In this document: positions 2,642 to 64,000 of the stretch, piece after piece
How the letters are laid out: every line of letters begins with the position of its first letter
Position numbering within the stretch: the first letter of the stretch is position 1
Source: Bacillota bacterium
Lineage (GTDB): Bacteria > Bacillota > PH28-bin88
NCBI GenBank assembly: GCA_040757295.1
Contig: JBFLXH010000007.1
Coordinates: forward strand, 35,142 to 99,141
Length of the DNA stretch: 64,000 nucleotides
Direction: 5' to 3'
Program-made: the position numbers and the translations under genes
Notes under the pieces: generated by a model
What the model saw: only the letters and a program-made list of their open reading frames with translations
The model's database searches: none
What the model was told of the DNA's origin: nothing

Positions 2642-3199
2642 ATGCTCAAAAGAAGTGTTTTCGGAAAACTTTTAGGAGTTTGCCTTGTTGGAGTACTGTT
2701 TGTGCTTGTTGTTTTAGGGGTTTTGCGTTGGGCATATCCATTGGAATATGTTGATATTATCCGCCTTGAGGCCTGGGAAAAAGGGCTTGATCCTTATTTA
2801 GTGGCCGCTGTTCTACGAGTAGAAAGCAGATTTGATCCTGAAGCTGTTTCTCCTAAAGGAGCAAGGGGTTTGATGCAGTTAATGCCCGAAACGGCCCAGT
2901 GGGTTGCAAAGCAGGCGGGTGTTAAATATCACCCGGACAAATTATTCGACCCGGGATACAATATAAAACTAGGAACTTGGTACTTGTCGGATTTGCTCCA
3001 TGAGTTTAACGGCAATATTTGGCTGGCATTAGCAGCATACAATGGGGGTCGTGGTAACGTCAGGCAGTGGCTTGCTTCCAGACGATGGCTTGGCGATGTG
3101 GAAACGCTTCACAAGATACCTTTTGCTGAAACCAGGCGATTTGTCCAGAAAGTTAGAATTACCTGGATAGTATACAATAACCTCTATCCTTTTTTATAA
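2642..3199 (+). CDS. lytic transglycosylase (SLT domain) with N-terminal membrane anchor
   Basis: SLT catalytic block VESRFDPEAVSPKGARGLMQLMPETA and an N-terminal TM helix. Confidence 0.8.
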   Translation: MLKRSVFGKLLGVCLVGVLFVLVVLGVLRWAYPLEYVDIIRLEAWEKGLDPYLVAAVLRVESRFDPEAVSPKGARGLMQLMPETAQWVAKQAGVKYHPDKLFDPGYNIKLGTWYLSDLLHEFNGNIWLALAAYNGGRGNVRQWLASRRWLGDVETLHKIPFAETRRFVQKVRITWIVYNNLYPFL

Positions 3200-3324
3200 C
3201 GCATAGGAAATCTATGCTCGTTTAAAAAATGTGGATAAGCCATAATTTCCGTAATGCGTTTCAACAAAATCAACCATATTAAGGATTCTTTCAAAACAAA
3301 GATTTTGTTTTTATCAGGTAACAC
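3196..3324 (+). repeat. intergenic repeat family 1, copy 1 (two-hairpin element)
   Basis: About 85-90% identical to elements at 48221, 52308 and 63905. Arms ACGCATAGGAAATCTATG / CATAATTTCCGTAATGCGT form hairpin 1; AACAAAATC / GATTTTGTT form hairpin 2. The 5' end (TTTTTATAAC) supplies the slt stop codon. Confidence 0.8.
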
Positions 3325-3431
3325 TTACTAGGCCAAAATTTGCCGATAAAAAAAGGGATTTAGGACAAAATAACGAATACACTAGACGTCCGGCTTCAAC
3401 CCGGTAAATCCGGCACCGAGGTGATTCGTTT

Positions 3432-16518: not shown

Positions 16519-16853
16519 GGGAATATCAAATATTTTAATATTCGGTCTCCGAGCTAATACCGCCTAACGGTTTTTCCTATGGGGTTTAAGCCTGAGCTCT
16601 TAGCTCACGGGGTACAATTACCGGAAACGGGTGTGCCTCCATTATTGGGAAGGAGATGCATTAGGTCGTTTATTATTTCGGCCCTGCTAATTCGTTCCTT
16701 AGCAGGGCCATTATTTATAAGCTGGGATGCAAAAATAAGGTTGTTTATCCTTTTATTAGGTTAGCTGCTTATTAGTACTGGGAGCGCCTTACTGCCTCAG
16801 CAAGTATATCCAAGTTATTAACAAAGCATCGTAGAAGCTTTGGGGGTGTTTTC

Positions 16854-31539: not shown

Positions 31540-31615
31540 GGGCGATTAGCTCAGCTGGGAGAGCACCTGCCTTACAAGCAGGGGGTCGGCAGTTCAAACC
31601 TGTCATCGCCCACCA
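31540..31615 (+). tRNA. tRNA-Val (TAC)
   Basis: Hand-folded cloverleaf; anticodon loop CTTACAA; CCA encoded. Confidence 0.85.
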
Positions 31616-31624
31616 AAAAAGTAC

Positions 31625-31701
31625 GGAGCTGTAGTGTAGCGGTCTAACATGCCGGCCTGTCACGCCGGAGATCGCGGGTTCGATTCCCGTCAGCTCCGCC
31701 A
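31625..31701 (+). tRNA. tRNA-Asp (GTC)
   Basis: Acceptor GGAGCTG/CAGCTCC; anticodon loop CTGTCAC; CCA encoded. Confidence 0.85.
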
Positions 31702-31705
31702 TTCT

Positions 31706-31781
<76 letters not shown>

Positions 31782-31784
31782 GTT

Positions 31785-31859
31785 GCGGAAGTAGCTCAGT
31801 GGTAGAGCATCGCCTTGCCAAGGCGAGGGTCGCGGGTTCGAATCCCGTCTTCCGCTCCA
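31785..31859 (+). tRNA. tRNA-Gly (GCC)
   Basis: Acceptor GCGGAAG/CTTCCGC; anticodon loop TTGCCAA; CCA encoded. Confidence 0.85.
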
Positions 31860-31941
31860 TTAAGTTTATACCGTGCAAGTAACGTAAATGATATTATGAA
31901 GCAACACTCGGCCTATGGCCTTTTTTGAGGCATTTTGTGTT

Positions 31942-32017
31942 GGTGCGGTGGCGAAGAGGCTAACGCCGCGGACTGCAAATCCGCTATTCGTGGGTTCAAA
32001 TCCCACCCGCACCTCCA
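31942..32017 (+). tRNA. tRNA-Cys (GCA)
   Basis: Acceptor GGTGCGG/CCGCACC; anticodon loop CTGCAAA; CCA encoded. Confidence 0.85.
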
Positions 32018-32031
32018 AAAAAGAATGAAAA

Positions 32032-32057
32032 GGACTGCCCAAAAGGCGGTCCGTTTT
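32032..32057 (+). terminator. terminator after tRNA-Cys
   Basis: GGACTGCC-CAAAA-GGCGGTCC hairpin followed by GTTTT. Confidence 0.55.
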
Positions 32058-32081
32058 ACTGCAAAAATATAGAGTGATTGG

Positions 32082-32110
32082 TTGCTAATTACAAAGCAGC
32101 GTGATATAAT
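32082..32110 (+). promoter_or_regulatory. sigma-A promoter (extended -10) for tRNA-Leu(TAA)
   Basis: TTGCTA, 17-nt spacer, TGaTATAAT. Confidence 0.6.
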
Positions 32111-32153
32111 TATTTTTGCCTTCGTTAATTACTATAATTACTATTTAAAATGT

Positions 32154-32241
32154 GCCGGAGTGGCGGAATAGGCAGACGCAAGGGACTTAAAATCCCTCGG
32201 GCCACAAGCCCGTACCGGTTCGAGTCCGGTTTCCGGCACCA
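32154..32241 (+). tRNA. tRNA-Leu (TAA), type II
   Basis: Acceptor GCCGGAG/TTCCGGC (G-U); anticodon loop CTTAAAA; long variable arm; CCA encoded. Confidence 0.8.
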
Positions 32242-48145: not shown

Positions 48146-48185
48146 ATTTGGTCGGTACATTGAAGTACCATTGAGCAGTGACGCT

Positions 48186-48220
48186 CGGCAAGGTTTTTTA
48201 CCTTGCCGGGCGTCTTTTTT
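48186..48220 (+). terminator. rho-independent terminator after glnA
   Basis: CGGCAAGGT-TTTTT-ACCTTGCCG followed by GGCGTCTTTTTT. Confidence 0.8.
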
Positions 48221-48372
48221 ATAACACATAGGAAATTATGCTCGTTTAAAAAATGTAGATAAGTCATAATTTCCGTAATGTGTTGCAACAAAATCAACCA
48301 CATTAAGTTTTTCAAAAGGAAGATTTTGTTCTAACACATAGGAAATTATGCTCGTTTTAAAAGATGTGGGTT
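48221..48372 (+). repeat. intergenic repeat family 1, copy 2 plus a partial tandem copy
   Basis: Full unit 48221-48330 and a second start (TAACACATAGGAAATTATGCTCGTTTTAAAAGATGTGG) at 48331-48372. Same two hairpins as copy 1, with compensatory substitutions. Confidence 0.8.
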
Positions 48373-48434
48373 CGAAAATACTCTTTAGGAGCATTAACGA
48401 GAAAACTTTAAATCATTGAGGGAGGCTAGATAAG

Positions 48435-51132: not shown

Positions 51133-52311
51133 ATGCCTTTGGCAGATATTTTACTGCTGACAGCCCCTTTTGGGGGGGGACATCTTCATGCTGGTATGGC
51201 ATTGGAACATGCCTTTCAGCGATTTTTCCCTGAGGTAAAAGTAGCCTCATTTGATTTTGTTAAGGAAATAAGTCCATGGCTGGCAGGGTCCGCTAACTCC
51301 CTGTTGCTTGCTACCATAAGGTTTAAACCGGAATTATACGGGTCTTTTTACAACTATGTAGACAGGCTACCCCATGATTCATCTCTGCAAAAAGGATTGA
51401 ATCGAATAGGCTTAAACAAAGGCGCAAAACTTTTAGAGGATATTCAACCGCAGGTGGTGGTTTCTTTTTATCCGACCCCCTCCCAGGTTGTAGGAGATCT
51501 CAAGGGTAAGGGACAGTTTAAGGGCCAATTGGTGACAGTTATAACTGATTATGCTGTAAATAAGCAATGGATTCATCCGCTGACAGACCTGTACTTGGTT
51601 GCGGCTACTGAGGTAAAAAATGAGCTGACAGCCTGCGGGGTATCCGATGATAAAATCAAAGTGACCGGTATTCCTATTTCTCTGGATTTTGCTCAGGAAA
51701 AGATCAGAAATGAACTTTTAAAAACCCACGGTTTAGATCAGAGCCTCCCTCTTTTGCTGATCTGCTGTGGGGCATTTGGCGTTATCAGAGGTATTGAGGA
51801 GTTATGCAGAGAAATATCCTCTTACAAGGCCTCCCTGCAAAGCGTTATAATTGCTGGTAGGAACTTTCGGTTGCAACGGCGTCTGGAGGCTATTGCCCAA
51901 AGAGCTAAACACCCTTTTTATGTATATGGGTATGTTAAAGATATGGCTGATTGGATGGCAATGGCAGACATTGTTGTTAGTAAATCTGGCGGTTTAACTG
52001 TAAGTGAGGCATTAGCGTGTGAGCTTCCAATGGTAATTATTCCTCCTCTTCCAGGTCAAGAAACAGCTAATGCCCAATACCTTCTTAACTATGGAGCAGC
52101 TGTCTGTTGCGACGATATTTCTCAAATTCCACAAGTAATATTGCATCTGTTGACAAAACCTTCAGAGATGCAAAAAATGCGATGCTCGGCACGAGAGATA
52201 AAAAAACCCTTTGCAGCTAAACATGCGGCTTCAGTGATAGCTGGAATGCTGTCTTGTATTCATTCAGAAAGGGAAGCACAGAAACTGATGGTCGGAGCAT
52301 CTTTTTTATAA
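51133..52311 (+). CDS. diacylglycerol glycosyltransferase (MGDG synthase / UgtP-like, GT28 family)
   Basis: MGDG_synth N-terminal domain (LLLTAPFGGGHLHAG) and a C-terminal GT-B domain; 392 aa. Confidence 0.75.
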   Translation: MPLADILLLTAPFGGGHLHAGMALEHAFQRFFPEVKVASFDFVKEISPWLAGSANSLLLATIRFKPELYGSFYNYVDRLPHDSSLQKGLNRIGLNKGAKLLEDIQPQVVVSFYPTPSQVVGDLKGKGQFKGQLVTVITDYAVNKQWIHPLTDLYLVAATEVKNELTACGVSDDKIKVTGIPISLDFAQEKIRNELLKTHGLDQSLPLLLICCGAFGVIRGIEELCREISSYKASLQSVIIAGRNFRLQRRLEAIAQRAKHPFYVYGYVKDMADWMAMADIVVSKSGGLTVSEALACELPMVIIPPLPGQETANAQYLLNYGAAVCCDDISQIPQVILHLLTKPSEMQKMRCSAREIKKPFAAKHAASVIAGMLSCIHSEREAQKLMVGASFL

Positions 52312-52410
52312 CACAAAGGAAATTAGGCTCGTTTAAAATATTTGGATAAGTCATAATTTCCGTTTCAACAAAATCCACCACACTAAGTGTTCCAAAGGAA
52401 GATTTTGTTC
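52308..52410 (+). repeat. intergenic repeat family 1, copy 3 (hairpin-1 3' arm partly deleted)
   Basis: ATAACACAAAGGAAATTAGGCTCGTTTAAAATATTTGGATAAGTCATAATTTCC ... GATTTTGTTC. The 5' end supplies the stop codon of the glycosyltransferase gene. Confidence 0.75.
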
Positions 52411-52446
52411 TGATATGTTCCTTAATATTTACCTGGAGGTGTTTTT

Positions 52447-52599
52447 ATGAAATTTAATCATGTAAACCTGCTTAACCGGGAAAGGGCGCTGCTATTGGAT
52501 AAATGGCTTTTGGAGCCCCAATCTAGACCAAAAATTTTGGCAAGGATAATGGAGCTAGAAGAAGAGATATCAATACATATGGAGAAGACTAGAAACAGT
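52447..52599 (+). CDS. small hypothetical ORF (50 aa) immediately downstream of repeat copy 3
   Basis: RBS GGAGG 7 nt upstream of the ATG; followed by CGGCTTTGCA...TGCAAAGCCG hairpin; no family recognised. Confidence 0.3.
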
Positions 52600-52785
52600 T
52601 AATAAAAAACAATACGGCTTTGCAAAAGAGGATGCAAAGCCGCAGTGTTTCTTCCAGCAAAAATCATTTTCCTTATCGCAAAAAAATTGTTTCCCCGTAC
52701 CAGCAGGTCTTTTCAAGTCTTTGAGGCTATTGGCTTAATAATTGCTTGGTTATTATAAAAATATTGTCAGAAAGCAGGAGGGGAT

Positions 52786-53859: not shown

Positions 53860-54133
53860 GAGCTTTGCAAAATATTGGCTGAAACAGTCAATCCATCAGA
53901 TCGCTGAGTTTCCTTTTCTTAAAAAGGAAAGCGGGGGACCTAATTTTTTGGGGCTAATCCGGCGAAAATTGGCCATAAAATGGCCAAAATTGCGCTGGAC
54001 GGGTGAATCCTCTTCGATCCGAGCCCGTCAACTAACCTCGTAAGCGTGGGAGAAGGAGGTGGATTGGGTTTAGCAGCAGCATTGCTTGTCGATGTTGTTT
54101 TGCTGCTTTTCCCACCCAAGGAGATGCCTCCTT
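53860..54133 (+). promoter_or_regulatory. structured ~270-nt leader ending in an intrinsic terminator (54103-54133), immediately upstream of ODH-family/B12-domain operon; candidate riboswitch or attenuator of unknown class
   Basis: Hairpins TTTCCTTTT-CTTA-AAAAGGAAA, TTGGCCAT-AAA-ATGGCCAA and GACGGG..CCCGTC. Then CCCAAGGAG-ATGC-CTCCTTGGG plus TTATTTTTT, 25 nt before the ORF. Confidence 0.5.
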
Positions 54134-63832: not shown

Positions 63833-63904
63833 AACTGCCTCCCCCTTTTTCTCGGTATAAAATAATAATAGCACACCAGCGTTCTTTGACGATAAATTTT
63901 TTTG

Positions 63905-64000
63905 AAACACATAGGAAATTAGGTGCGTTTAAAAATGTGGATAAGTTATAATTTCCGTAATGTGTTTCACCATAATCAACCTTAAATTCTTTCGCAAGGA
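63905..64000 (+). repeat. intergenic repeat family 1, copy 4 (runs off window end)
   Basis: AAACACATAGGAAATTAGGTGCGTTTAAAAATGTGGATAAGTTATAATTTCCGTAATGTGTTTC...; the same hairpin-1 architecture. Confidence 0.7.

What the first reader, a model, noticed from the sequence alone, without database searches (positions are those of the whole stretch)
3196..3324. Novel ~110-nt intergenic repeat family with two conserved hairpins and compensatory base changes (4 copies + partial tandem copy; also 48221-48372, 52308-52410, 63905-64000)
Four copies are 85-90% identical. Each starts with TTTTTTATAAC(A/G)CATAGGAAAT and carries a long imperfect hairpin (ACRCATAGGAAATTATG ... CATAATTTCCGTAATGYGT, 24-nt loop). 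A second hairpin follows (AACAAAATC ... 27-nt loop ... GATTTTGTT). Copy 1 has ACGCAT/ATGCGT where copy 2 has ACACAT/ATGTGT. This G-C to A-T compensatory pair preserves the stem, which points to selection on structure (RNA or cruciform DNA). In copies 1 and 3 the element's first bases provide the last codons and stop (ttt tta TAA) of the upstream gene (slt; glycosyltransferase). Copy 2 follows the glnA terminator T-run and is followed by a partial tandem restart. These are signatures of a small non-autonomous mobile element (MITE/REP-like) with AT-rich target preference, or of a family of small structured RNAs. Three copies sit just upstream of nitrogen/NAD-related genes (pncB, amt-glnK), so a regulatory role is also conceivable. 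No transposase is present in the window.
Basis: seen in the sequence. Interest (0 to 1): 0.65.

Follow-up and report, generated by a model that had tools for sequence, protein, structure and literature searches.

The report
Dispersed two-hairpin intergenic DNA repeat
A roughly 115-base AT-rich sequence that folds into two hairpins is scattered through this uncultured Bacillota genome; it is a previously undescribed member of a familiar class, the small structured interspersed repeats, and is not a nitrogen or NAD regulator.

Summary
The repeat is real. There are four full copies, all on the + strand, plus a 37-nt tandem restart (nhmmer E 1e-28 to 1e-37; covariance model 76-136 bits). No other copy lies in the 64 kb.

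Five homologues were found elsewhere: two on a related 3-kb contig and three on low-GC metagenome contigs. They keep the same architecture: a T-run, a two-part hairpin, a linker and a second hairpin. Of 25 modelled pairs, 6 change on both sides and 97% of cells stay paired.

Both strands fold equally well, so RNA and single-stranded DNA cannot be told apart. Nothing matches in Rfam, in the plasmid or phage collections, or in the paper library.

Genomic contexts are inconsistent: gene ends, divergent promoter regions, and antisense inside operons. About 140 kb from the nearest relatives holds no copy. This argues against a cis-regulator and for a non-autonomous dispersed repeat that sits next to T-tracts.

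It has no terminal inverted repeats and no consistent target duplication, so it is not a classical MITE or REP. The closest analogue is bcr1 of Bacillus cereus.

One unexpected feature is a conserved perfect DnaA box (TTATCCACA) in the hairpin-1 loop. How the element moves is unknown.

The parts
3190..3314 (+). Copy 1. T-run 3190-3195. Outer stem ACGCAT 3199-3204 with ATGCGT 3254-3259. Inner stem 3206-3216 with 3241-3250. DnaA box (TGTGGATAA) 3230-3238. Hairpin 2 is 3263-3271 with 3301-3309, followed by TTTAT 3310-3314. The first bases supply the last codons and the stop of the SLT gene (2642-3199).
   Evidence: (128 bits)
48180..48214 (+). glnA intrinsic terminator stem (15 bp). Its T-tail, TTTTTTATAA, is the first ten bases of copy 2.
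48215..48332 (+). Copy 2, the best match to the family model. Outer stem 48224-48229 with 48278-48283. Inner stem 48231-48240 with 48265-48274. One-mismatch DnaA box (TGTAGATAA) 48254-48262. Hairpin 2 is 48287-48295 with 48322-48330.
   Evidence: (135.6 bits)
48333..48369 (+). Partial head-to-tail second unit (AACACATAGG...GATGTGG). It is truncated inside the hairpin-1 loop. The junction GTTCT|AACACATAGG is the same as in the dimer on L018.
   Evidence: (E 4e-7)
52302..52411 (+). Copy 3. It has a 7-8 nt deletion of GTAATGTG, the 3' arm of the outer stem. One-mismatch DnaA box (TTTGGATAA) 52341-52349. The first bases supply the last codons and the stop of the MGDG-synthase-like glycosyltransferase gene (51133-52311). 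A 51-aa ORF with a ribosome-binding site starts 36 nt downstream.
   Evidence: (107 bits)
63897..64000 (+). Copy 4, cut by the window end. It was completed on L049:3871-3990, which is 100% identical to the window. It has a perfect DnaA box at 63936-63944 and two mismatches in hairpin 2. It lies between two minus-strand genes. One is an NTPase-like ORF whose last ~11 codons and stop fall in hairpin 2. The other is an FAA-hydrolase gene that starts about 65 nt away.
   Evidence: (76 bits)

Best explanation
This is a small, non-autonomous, dispersed DNA repeat of about 110-123 bp and 23-31% G+C, in a window of 44% G+C. Its architecture is T(4-7)ATAA, then a two-part hairpin (6 bp, an A/GTA internal loop, then 10 bp, with a 24-nt loop), then a TTTC linker, then a 9-bp hairpin with a variable 21-29 nt loop, ending in GTT(CT).

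Shown:
- It is multicopy and its flanks are unrelated to each other.
- It abuts T-tracts at gene ends or in divergent promoter regions.
- It can occur as a head-to-tail dimer.
- It is absent from the sampled regions of the closest relatives.
- Its hairpins are kept by compensatory changes across lineages that are only 65-80% identical.

Inferred:
- Copies were spread in trans by an enzyme that is not encoded nearby.
- That enzyme recognises the folded hairpins, most plausibly on single-stranded DNA, and inserts beside a T-rich site without a regular duplication.
- In outline this resembles HUH (Y1) systems such as IS200/IS605 and REP-RAYT, or the unexplained TTTAT-linked spread of bcr1.
- The consequences for the host are probably incidental: new stop codons for three genes, and extra hairpins in mRNA ends and operon spacers.
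For: Repeat family and copy count.

Flanks diverge exactly at the T-run and after GTT(CT).

Short-read Logan contigs of the same organism end inside copies 1 and 2 (L050 ends at window 3270, L038 at 48244). This implies further near-identical copies elsewhere in the genome.

A related contig, L018, carries a dimer split by an unrelated IS.

Distant homologues L039, L048/L057 and the truncated L041 keep the architecture.

Covariation: 6 of 25 pairs change on both sides and 97.4% of cells are paired, against 36-54% when the partner is slid. No shuffle out of 500 reaches the observed value.

Folding z-scores are -3 to -5.5.

The element is absent from about 91 kb around glnA in five relatives (80-85% GlnA identity). 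It is also absent from about 49 kb around the liv operon in three relatives of L048. At the window's density about 6 copies would be expected in the 91 kb.

The liv SBP-livH spacer is 190 nt with the element in L057 and 123 nt without it in L058.

The T-run of copy 2 doubles as the glnA terminator tail.

Contexts and orientation relative to genes are inconsistent.

No Rfam family matches.

bcr1 is a precedent. It has two independent stem-loops, compensatory changes and a TTTAT association: PMC3184786, PMC6542083.
Against: - No filled-versus-empty pair at one precisely alignable site was obtained. The spacers of the relatives are too diverged, so mobility is inferred and not shown.
- Copies within the genome differ by 10-20%, so any spread is not recent. 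Continued pairing in old copies could instead mean that each copy is under selection for a function.
- No partner enzyme was found. There is no Y1 or DnaA_C-like ORF in the window or loci by tblastn, and no transposase among the window ORFs.
- The one IS seen, on L018, has unrelated ends.
- The two hairpins are unlike each other and have large loops, unlike IS200/IS605 ends.
- Four of four copies share one orientation, which by chance alone has p = 0.125.
- The three metagenome homologues were fetched with a pattern that fixed GGAAAT, GATAAG and ATAATTTCC. Invariance of those bases in those three is partly by construction.
Confidence: 0.6

Rival explanations
1. The copies form a family of structured RNA elements. 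They are transcribed as parts of mRNAs or as small RNAs, and the two hairpins act at the RNA level, for example as 3'-end or operon-spacer stabilisers. They are kept by selection in each copy.
For: - Both hairpins covary.
- Three of the four single-base departures that keep or break a pair give G-U on the + strand, and one gives A-C.
- The L048 copy sits between the binding-protein gene and livH of an ABC operon, right after a terminator-like hairpin. This is the classic position of mRNA-stabilising REPs.
- Copies within the genome are 10-20% diverged yet still paired.
- bcr1 is reported to be transcribed (PMC3184786).
Against: - No conserved promoter or intrinsic terminator lies inside the element.
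- Similarity starts at the T-run, so there is no shared upstream promoter.
- Orientation relative to the surrounding genes is mixed. It is sense in copies 1-3 and antisense in copy 4 and L048.
- The minus strand folds as well as the plus strand.
- No Rfam match.
Confidence: 0.2
2. The element is a protein-recognition module built around the conserved DnaA box in the hairpin-1 loop. It would be either a host DnaA-binding or titration site, or the cognate substrate of a Y1 (RAYT-like) transposase that carries a DnaA-domain-IV-like C-terminal HTH.
For: - TGTGGATAA (= TTATCCACA) is perfect in 5 of 9 copies and is the consensus in all four lineages.
- The only two perfect boxes in the 64 kb are in copies 1 and 4.
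- The 5' half of the same loop is not conserved between lineages, while TGTR upstream of GATAAG is. TGTR was not part of the search pattern.
- Quentin et al. 2018 describe a large Y1 subclass (2.1) with Bac_DnaA_C-like C-termini and no known REP partner (PMC6006769).
Against: - Each unit has a single 9-mer, whereas known DnaA regulatory sites are clusters.
- GATAAG was fixed by my metagenome pattern, which biases what was found.
- No Y1 or DnaA_C ORF is in the sequence available.
- DnaA boxes are not enriched in the window overall (22 found against 17 expected).
- The match could be a coincidence among the many motifs one could compare with.
Confidence: 0.12
3. The element is a cis-regulatory leader, riboswitch-like, for nitrogen and NAD metabolism genes (QRPTase, amt-glnK).
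For: Copies 1 and 2 lie 118 and about 100 nt upstream of a QRPTase-family gene and of amt-glnK.
Against: - Copy 3 precedes an unrelated 51-aa ORF.
- Copy 4 and L048 are antisense to their neighbours.
- L018, L039 and L041 have unrelated neighbours.
- The syntenic glnA-amt spacer of Calderihabitans maritimus lacks it, and no copy lies near glnA in the other relatives sampled.
- The loops are as conserved within the genome as the stems, the pattern of a young repeat and not of an aptamer.
Confidence: 0.03

Closest known systems
bcr1 (Group A repeats bcr1-bcr3) of the Bacillus cereus group
   Same: Both are Bacillota chromosomal interspersed repeats of 100-155 bp. Both have a predicted structure of two independent stem-loops kept by compensatory changes. 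Both are associated with a TTTAT motif. Both lack an encoded transposase and terminal inverted repeats, and neither has a known mobilising enzyme (PMC3184786; PMC6542083).
   Different: No sequence similarity was detected. blastn against PLSDB found nothing, and B. cereus-group plasmids are reported to carry bcr1. The host here is an uncultured Bacillota related to Calderihabitans and PH28_bin88, and low-GC Peptococcaceae-like lineages. TTTAT lies 5' of all copies but 3' of copy 1 only. A conserved DnaA box is present. The bcr1 consensus itself could not be obtained for a direct alignment.
REP/BIME elements with their RAYT (TnpA-REP) Y1 transposases
   Same: Both are hairpin-forming extragenic repeats found at gene ends and in operon spacers, including a binding-protein/permease spacer of an ABC operon. 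Both carry no transposase of their own and are presumably recognised as folded single strands.
   Different: REPs are 20-40 nt, usually G+C-rich, with small loops and a GTAG or CGTC tag. They are paired in inverted orientation in BIMEs. This element is about 115 nt and AT-rich, has two dissimilar hairpins with 21-29 nt loops, and forms head-to-tail dimers. No RAYT gene was available to test.
IS200/IS605 family ends and their miniature derivatives (PATEs)
   Same: Both lack terminal inverted repeats and a regular target duplication. Both have a subterminal hairpin near each end and a fixed short sequence on the 5' side only. All window copies lie on one strand, the G-rich leading strand.
   Different: The left and right hairpins of those ISs resemble each other and have short loops, while these two do not. 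No tnpA or tnpB is nearby. The strand bias rests on 4 copies (p = 0.125).
Pneumococcal RUP, BOX and SPRITE, and other small structured repeats
   Same: All are about 100-nt repeats in Bacillota intergenic regions that fold stably and can affect neighbouring gene expression.
   Different: RUP has terminal inverted repeats and a TA duplication linked to IS630-Spn1. BOX is modular. SPRITE is terminator-like. None of those features is seen here, and no sequence match was found.

Membership tests
Classical MITE | Terminal inverted repeats at the two ends | tested here: not met
   The 5' end (T-run-ATAACACATAGG) and the 3' end (GATTTTGTTCT) are not complementary. The inverted repeats are internal and form hairpin 1 and hairpin 2.
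Classical MITE | Fixed-length target-site duplication flanking every copy | tested here: not met
   TTTAT lies on both sides of copy 1 only. The other copies have CTGAT, CTTTT, CATGA, ATAAA, AATAA or ACTTT on the 3' side.
Classical MITE | A parent IS with the same ends | tested here: not met
   The only IS seen is L018:447-2452. It has a DDE_Tnp_1 domain and 19-bp inverted repeats TAACCCGAGTTTGGCGACA, which are unrelated to the element. No such sequence is in the window.
REP/BIME-RAYT | A short (20-40 nt) palindrome with a conserved GTAG or CGTC tag, paired in inverted orientation | tested here: not met
   The unit is 110-123 nt with two different hairpins. The dimers are head-to-tail.
REP/BIME-RAYT | A single-copy Y1 (RAYT) gene in the genome, flanked by the repeats | not testable with these tools
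   Only 64 kb plus about 1 kb of the home genome is readable. tblastn with Y1 and DnaA_C queries found nothing in it.
IS200/IS605-derived miniature element | Similar subterminal hairpins with short loops at both ends, bound by one TnpA | tested here: not met
   The hairpin-1 stem is GGAAATTATG with a 24-nt loop. The hairpin-2 stem is AACAAAATC with a 21-29 nt loop. The two share no similarity.
IS200/IS605-derived miniature element | A conserved target sequence 5' of the left end, no duplication, and an orientation bias towards the lagging-strand template | tested here: inconclusive
   T(4-7)AT precedes all 9 copies in 4 lineages, but it may be part of the element. All four window copies are on the G-rich strand (GC skew +0.05 to +0.16). 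Local skew agrees for L057 and L041 and disagrees for L039. The sample is too small.
bcr1 / Group A bcr repeats | Two independent stem-loops kept by compensatory changes | tested here: met
   compared with the description in PMC3184786.
bcr1 / Group A bcr repeats | Sequence homology to the bcr1 consensus and restriction to the B. cereus group | tested here: not met
   No blastn match in PLSDB. The hosts are not Bacillus. This test is indirect, because the bcr1 consensus was not available.
bcr1 / Group A bcr repeats | Non-conserved chromosomal distribution between related strains | tested here: inconclusive
   The element is absent from the sampled regions of relatives at 73-85% protein identity. 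No strain-level relatives exist in the collections.
Any Rfam 15 RNA family | A covariance-model match at or near the gathering score | tested here: not met
   No gathering-level hit at any copy. In the copy-2 region the best hits at E <= 10 are 12-22 bits against thresholds of 48-211 bits.
DnaA-box cluster / DnaA-binding site | A consensus 9-mer TTATCCACA | tested here: met
   Perfect in copies 1 and 4, L018A, L048 and L041. One mismatch in copies 2 and 3 and L039. Two mismatches in L018B.
DnaA-box cluster / DnaA-binding site | Several boxes clustered, and demonstrated DnaA binding | tested here: not met
   There is one box per unit and no second box within the element. Binding cannot be tested here.

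The most novel reading that the evidence does not exclude
The conserved unit is a hairpin that presents a DnaA box (GGAAATTAT-loop-TGTGGATAAG-ATAATTTCC). It would be the missing DNA partner of the widespread 'orphan' Y1 HUH transposases of subclass 2.1. These carry a DnaA-domain-IV-like C-terminal HTH, and no REP-like substrate has been found for them (PMC6006769). The enzyme would dock on the box and process the adjacent hairpin on single-stranded DNA at the fork, which would explain the one-strand orientation. Alternatively, the host's own DnaA is recruited to these hairpins.
Probability: 0.1. Interest if true: 0.7.

Novelty: new member of a known kind. Interest (0 to 1): 0.4.

Why it matters
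Small structured repeats shape bacterial genomes. They break assemblies, rewrite gene ends, add hairpins to transcripts and attract other insertion sequences. For most families, including the well-studied bcr1, the mobilising enzyme is unknown.

This family has three useful properties. It comes from poorly sampled, uncultured Bacillota. It is conserved across lineages of 31% and 44% G+C with compensatory changes. It carries a recognisable protein-binding motif, a DnaA box, at a fixed place in a hairpin loop. That motif suggests a concrete candidate partner to look for: Y1 transposases with a DnaA-like DNA-binding domain, or DnaA itself.

In practice it also explains why short-read assemblies of this organism fragment at these sites. 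It warns annotators that the last codons of at least three genes here come from a repeat.

Tried and rejected
- **Rfam.** The whole window at gathering threshold and the copy-2 region at E <= 10 gave nothing relevant.
- **Genome-collection pattern scan.** 36 of 37 hits were chance single matches. Only L018 was real. The home species is not among the GTDB representatives.
- **Metagenome pattern scan.** 3 of 10 hits were real (L039, L048, L041). The other 7 were chance matches.
- **Viral contigs.** Three scans gave either nothing or coding-sequence chance matches.
- **blastn, distant mode.** The home and L048 variants against plasmids, and the home variant against phages, found no match.
- **Spurious-ORF trick.** The minus-strand frame of the element is open (..ITEIMTYPHFLNEHNFLCVIKK). 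I searched an alignment of these peptides against 5.8 billion proteins to catch mis-called ORFs over other copies. Nothing scored. This also argues against a conserved small protein, and copies 1 and 4 carry a frameshift or a stop.
- **Search for a partner enzyme.** tblastn with remembered DnaA domain IV, IS608 TnpA and E. coli RAYT sequences found nothing in the window or loci. A plasmid tblastn with DnaA domain IV returned mostly dnaA genes, plus a few other HTH or DnaA/Hda-family proteins and no Y1 fusion.
- **Empty-site reconstruction.** Alignment against Calderihabitans and PH28_bin88 glnA-amt spacers failed because the sequences are too diverged.
- **Promoter and terminator readings.** No sigma-70 or intrinsic terminator match lies inside the element. 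By eye, the sequence did not fit the sigma-54, sporulation-sigma, TnrA/GlnR, CodY, CRP/FNR, Noc, Ter or integron attC consensus sequences recalled from memory.
- **Literature string search.** Core sequences gave no hit.
Full report

Yes. Reading the four places shows the same ~115-nt sequence each time, always on the + strand. A profile HMM built from the copies finds them at E = 5e-37 to 2e-28, and finds a partial fifth match at 48330-48371 (E 4e-7). A covariance model run with filters off gives 136, 128, 107 and 76 bits for the four copies. The next-best matches score 30.5 bits or less, and the top ones are opposite-strand hits over the copies themselves. The window therefore holds exactly four copies and one tandem fragment.

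Copy 4 is cut by the window end. An identical Logan contig of the same organism (L049, 100% over 3,974 nt) supplies its last 16 nt.

Pairwise identity among the window copies is 80-90%. The flanks are unrelated. Similarity begins at a run of 4-7 T and ends after GATTTTGTT(CT).

- The two-part first hairpin and the second hairpin are present.
- Copy 1 has G-C where copy 2 has A-T.
- The ttt-tta-TAA ends of the SLT and glycosyltransferase genes lie inside the element.
- The glnA terminator is a 15-bp stem at 48180-48214, and its T-tail is the element's first ten bases.

Small corrections apply. Copy 3 has lost the 3' arm of the outer stem, and copy 4 has two mismatches in hairpin 2. The ACGCAT/ATGCGT variant is shared with a copy on another contig (L018A), so it marks a subfamily and comes from one event.

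**2. The organism and other copies.**

The window is ordinary chromosome: polA, fpg, coaE, slt, molybdopterin genes, an opp-like transporter, a tRNA cluster, and glnA-amt-glnK. None of the roughly 50 ORFs scanned against Pfam is a transposase or recombinase.

GlnA is 100% identical to a protein of an NCBI 'Bacillota bacterium' MAG. The next relatives are Clostridiales bacterium PH28_bin88 (85%) and Calderihabitans maritimus (82%).

Short-read contigs of the same organism end inside copy 1 (L050) and copy 2 (L038). That is what a multicopy repeat does to an assembly graph.

One scan of the genome collection found a single real relative, L018. It is a 3-kb contig binned as 'Fraserbacteria'. However, it carries a spore-photoproduct-lyase gene and has 46% G+C, so it is probably mis-binned. 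L018 carries two copies in direct orientation (134 and 120 bits). They are separated by a 2,006-bp IS with a DDE_Tnp_1 domain and perfect 19-bp inverted repeats that are unrelated to the element. Without the IS, the junction reads GTTC-TAACACATA. That is the same head-to-tail junction as between copy 2 and its partial neighbour in the window.

One metagenome scan gave three real but distant homologues on low-GC contigs:
- L039 (31% G+C; 111 bits).
- L048/L057 (32% G+C; 105 bits).
- L041 (28% G+C; 29 bits), a shortened version that keeps the T-run, the inner hairpin and the 3' CTTTGTT.

The other seven pattern hits are chance matches.

One caveat applies. These three homologues were fetched with a pattern that fixed GGAAAT, GATAAG and ATAATTTCC. 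Constancy of those bases in them is therefore partly by construction, and more diverged relatives would have been missed. 'Rare' is not established.

**3. Structure.**

I aligned eight full copies from three lineages (A2) and counted pairs on the three-helix model.
- 97.4% of 196 cells form standard pairs. When the 3' partner is slid by 1-3 columns, only 36-54% do.
- 6 of 25 pairs change on both sides. Three are in the outer stem, one is at the top of the inner stem, and two are in hairpin 2.
- None of 500 shuffles reaches the observed value on four of the five measures.
- Examples: ACACAT/ATGTGT, ACGCAT/ATGCGT and ACTAAT/ATTGGT in the outer stem; AAAATC/GATTTT, AAAGCC/GGCTTT and AAAGTC/GACTTT in hairpin 2.

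The covarying helices (outer stem and hairpin 2) were not constrained by the search patterns.

Each copy folds better than its dinucleotide shuffles (z = -3.0 to -5.5), but the minus strand does so equally. The structure is therefore supported, while the molecule in which it matters is not decided. It could be RNA of either strand, single-stranded DNA or a cruciform. Single-base departures give G-U on the + strand three times and A-C once, which is too few to weigh.

**4. Context.**

The 5' (T-run) end abuts one of two things:
- The end of a co-oriented gene: copy 1 (slt), copy 2 (glnA terminator) and copy 3 (glycosyltransferase).
- The start of a divergent gene 12-75 nt away: copy 4, L018A, L039, L041 and L048.

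The 3' end of copy 4 supplies the last ~11 codons and the stop of a minus-strand NTPase-like ORF.

In L048/L057 the element lies antisense inside a liv ABC operon. It sits between a terminator-like hairpin after the binding-protein gene and the ribosome-binding site of livH. A 73%-identical relative (L058) has a 123-nt spacer there without the element, against 190 nt in L057.

Model R1 finds nothing in two sets of relatives:
- About 91 kb around glnA in five relatives with 80-85% GlnA identity (L051, L052, L054, L060, L063).
- About 49 kb around the liv operon in three relatives (L058, L059, L067).

At the window's density about six copies would be expected in the 91 kb. C. maritimus keeps the glnA-amt-glnK order but has no element in the spacer. 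The spacers are too diverged to reconstruct an exact empty site.

No sigma-70-type promoter or intrinsic terminator is predicted inside the element.

**5. What it most likely is.**

Five observations fit a non-autonomous dispersed repeat, and not a cis-regulator or an sRNA gene:
- The element is multicopy, with unrelated flanks.
- Its position and orientation relative to genes vary.
- It is AT-rich (23-31% G+C) in a window of 44% G+C.
- It is absent from the sampled regions of the nearest relatives, yet present in distant lineages.
- It forms head-to-tail dimers and overwrites gene ends.

It is not a MITE in the strict sense, because it has no terminal inverted repeats. TTTAT lies on both sides of copy 1 only. 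The one IS seen has different ends.

It is not a REP, because of its size, composition, large loops and direct dimers.

It shares several traits with IS200/IS605-type ends: no inverted repeats, no regular duplication, a fixed 5' sequence, subterminal hairpins and one-strand orientation. All four window copies are on the G-rich leading strand, where GC skew is +0.05 to +0.16. However, the two hairpins are dissimilar and have large loops, and four of four in one orientation has p = 0.125 by chance.

The closest described analogue is bcr1 of the Bacillus cereus group. It is about 155 bp, has 'two independent stem loops' with compensatory changes, and is associated with TTTAT. It is transcribed, and its mobilising enzyme is unknown (PMC3184786; PMC6542083). 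I found no sequence similarity to bcr1 indirectly and could not obtain its consensus.

I therefore class the element as a new member of a known kind. Mobility itself is inferred, not shown. The 10-20% divergence between copies means that any spread is old, or that each copy is under selection. That keeps the RNA-element rival alive at about 0.2.

**6. An unexpected feature.**

The 3' half of the hairpin-1 loop reads TGTGGATAAG, directly against the stem. Its complement, TTATCCACA, is the consensus DnaA box.
- The box is perfect in 5 of 9 copies and is the consensus in all four lineages.
- The only two perfect boxes in the 64-kb window are those in copies 1 and 4.
- The 5' half of the same loop is unrelated between lineages.
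- GATAAG was fixed by my search pattern, but the preceding TGTR was not.

Quentin et al. (PMC6006769) describe a large subclass of Y1 HUH transposases (2.1; found in 14.9% of strains). These carry a Bac_DnaA_C-like C-terminal HTH, and no REP-like partner could be found for them. A hairpin presenting a DnaA box is what such an enzyme might recognise.

I could not test this. I give it about 0.1 and list the tests that would decide it.

**7. Verdict.**

The repeat family and the structure are real. The strict MITE or REP label and the nitrogen/NAD link are not supported.
- Novelty: an undescribed family of a known kind.
- Interest is moderate (0.4). It rises only if the DnaA-box/Y1 link or a discrete RNA is demonstrated.

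Noticed in passing
window 3230-3238, 63936-63944 (perfect); 48254-48262, 52341-52349 (one mismatch); also L048, L041, L018A: The hairpin-1 loop carries the consensus DnaA box TTATCCACA on the minus strand, directly next to the stem. These are the only two perfect boxes in the window. The box is conserved across lineages while the other half of the loop is not.
   Followed up: partly
L018:447-2452 (IS); inverted repeats at 2434-2452 and 447-465: A 2,006-bp IS sits exactly at the junction of a head-to-tail dimer of the repeat. It encodes a 609-aa DDE_Tnp_1 transposase and has perfect 19-bp inverted repeats TAACCCGAGTTTGGCGACA. A near-tandem duplication, AACACATAAT-AACACATAGG, lies just beside it. 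The IS may target the repeat, or this may be chance.
   Followed up: partly
L018:1-31: The contig ends in Illumina adapter sequence (AGATCGGAAGAGCACACGTCTGAACTCCAGT). It is binned as 'Candidatus Fraserbacteria' although it carries a spore-photoproduct-lyase gene and this Bacillota repeat. It is probably a mis-binned, adapter-contaminated contig.
   Followed up: no
L050 end (= window 3270); L038 end (= window 48244): Short-read Logan contigs of the same organism stop inside copies 1 and 2. The more diverged copy 4 is assembled through (L049). The repeat is fragmenting assemblies of this genome.
   Followed up: yes
minus strand of each copy, e.g. window 48217-48228: Read on the minus strand, the element ends in TGTGTTATAAAAAA, which resembles a Gram-positive extended -10 (TRTGnTATAAT) facing outward. 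In 5 of 9 copies a minus-strand gene starts 12-75 nt beyond it. The motif is mutated in copy 4, and the TG is absent in copy 1, L039 and L048.
   Followed up: no
L057:11200-11390 (= L048:7466-7656): The low-GC homologue sits in the binding-protein/livH spacer of a liv ABC operon, just after a terminator-like hairpin (GGATTACC...GGTAATCC). This is the classic position of mRNA-stabilising REPs in malE-malF and hisJ-hisQ (the last comparison is from memory). The 73%-identical relative L058 has a different G+C-rich hairpin there and no element.
   Followed up: partly
window 48383-48395 and L063:11463-11475: A 13-nt string, CTTTAGGAGCATT, is shared by the glnA-amt spacers of this genome and Calderihabitans maritimus. 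The spacers are otherwise not alignable. It may be a conserved amt leader motif or a chance match.
   Followed up: no
window 52447-52602: A 51-aa ORF (MKFNHVNLLNRERALLLDKWLLEPQSRPKILARIMELEEEISIHMEKTRNS) with a good ribosome-binding site starts 36 nt after copy 3. It looked Spo0E-like by eye but has no Pfam match.
   Followed up: partly
window 16535-16671, 53892-54061, 31540-32238: A Moco riboswitch lies upstream of the tatC/molybdopterin gene cluster. A c-di-AMP riboswitch lies upstream of an octopine-dehydrogenase-family gene. There is also a cluster of six tRNA genes. All are ordinary Rfam matches.
   Followed up: no
window 3330-3431: About 100 nt lies between copy 1 and the QRPTase-family ORF. 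It contains a possible hairpin (CCGG...CCGG region) and has no Rfam match. It was not examined further.
   Followed up: no
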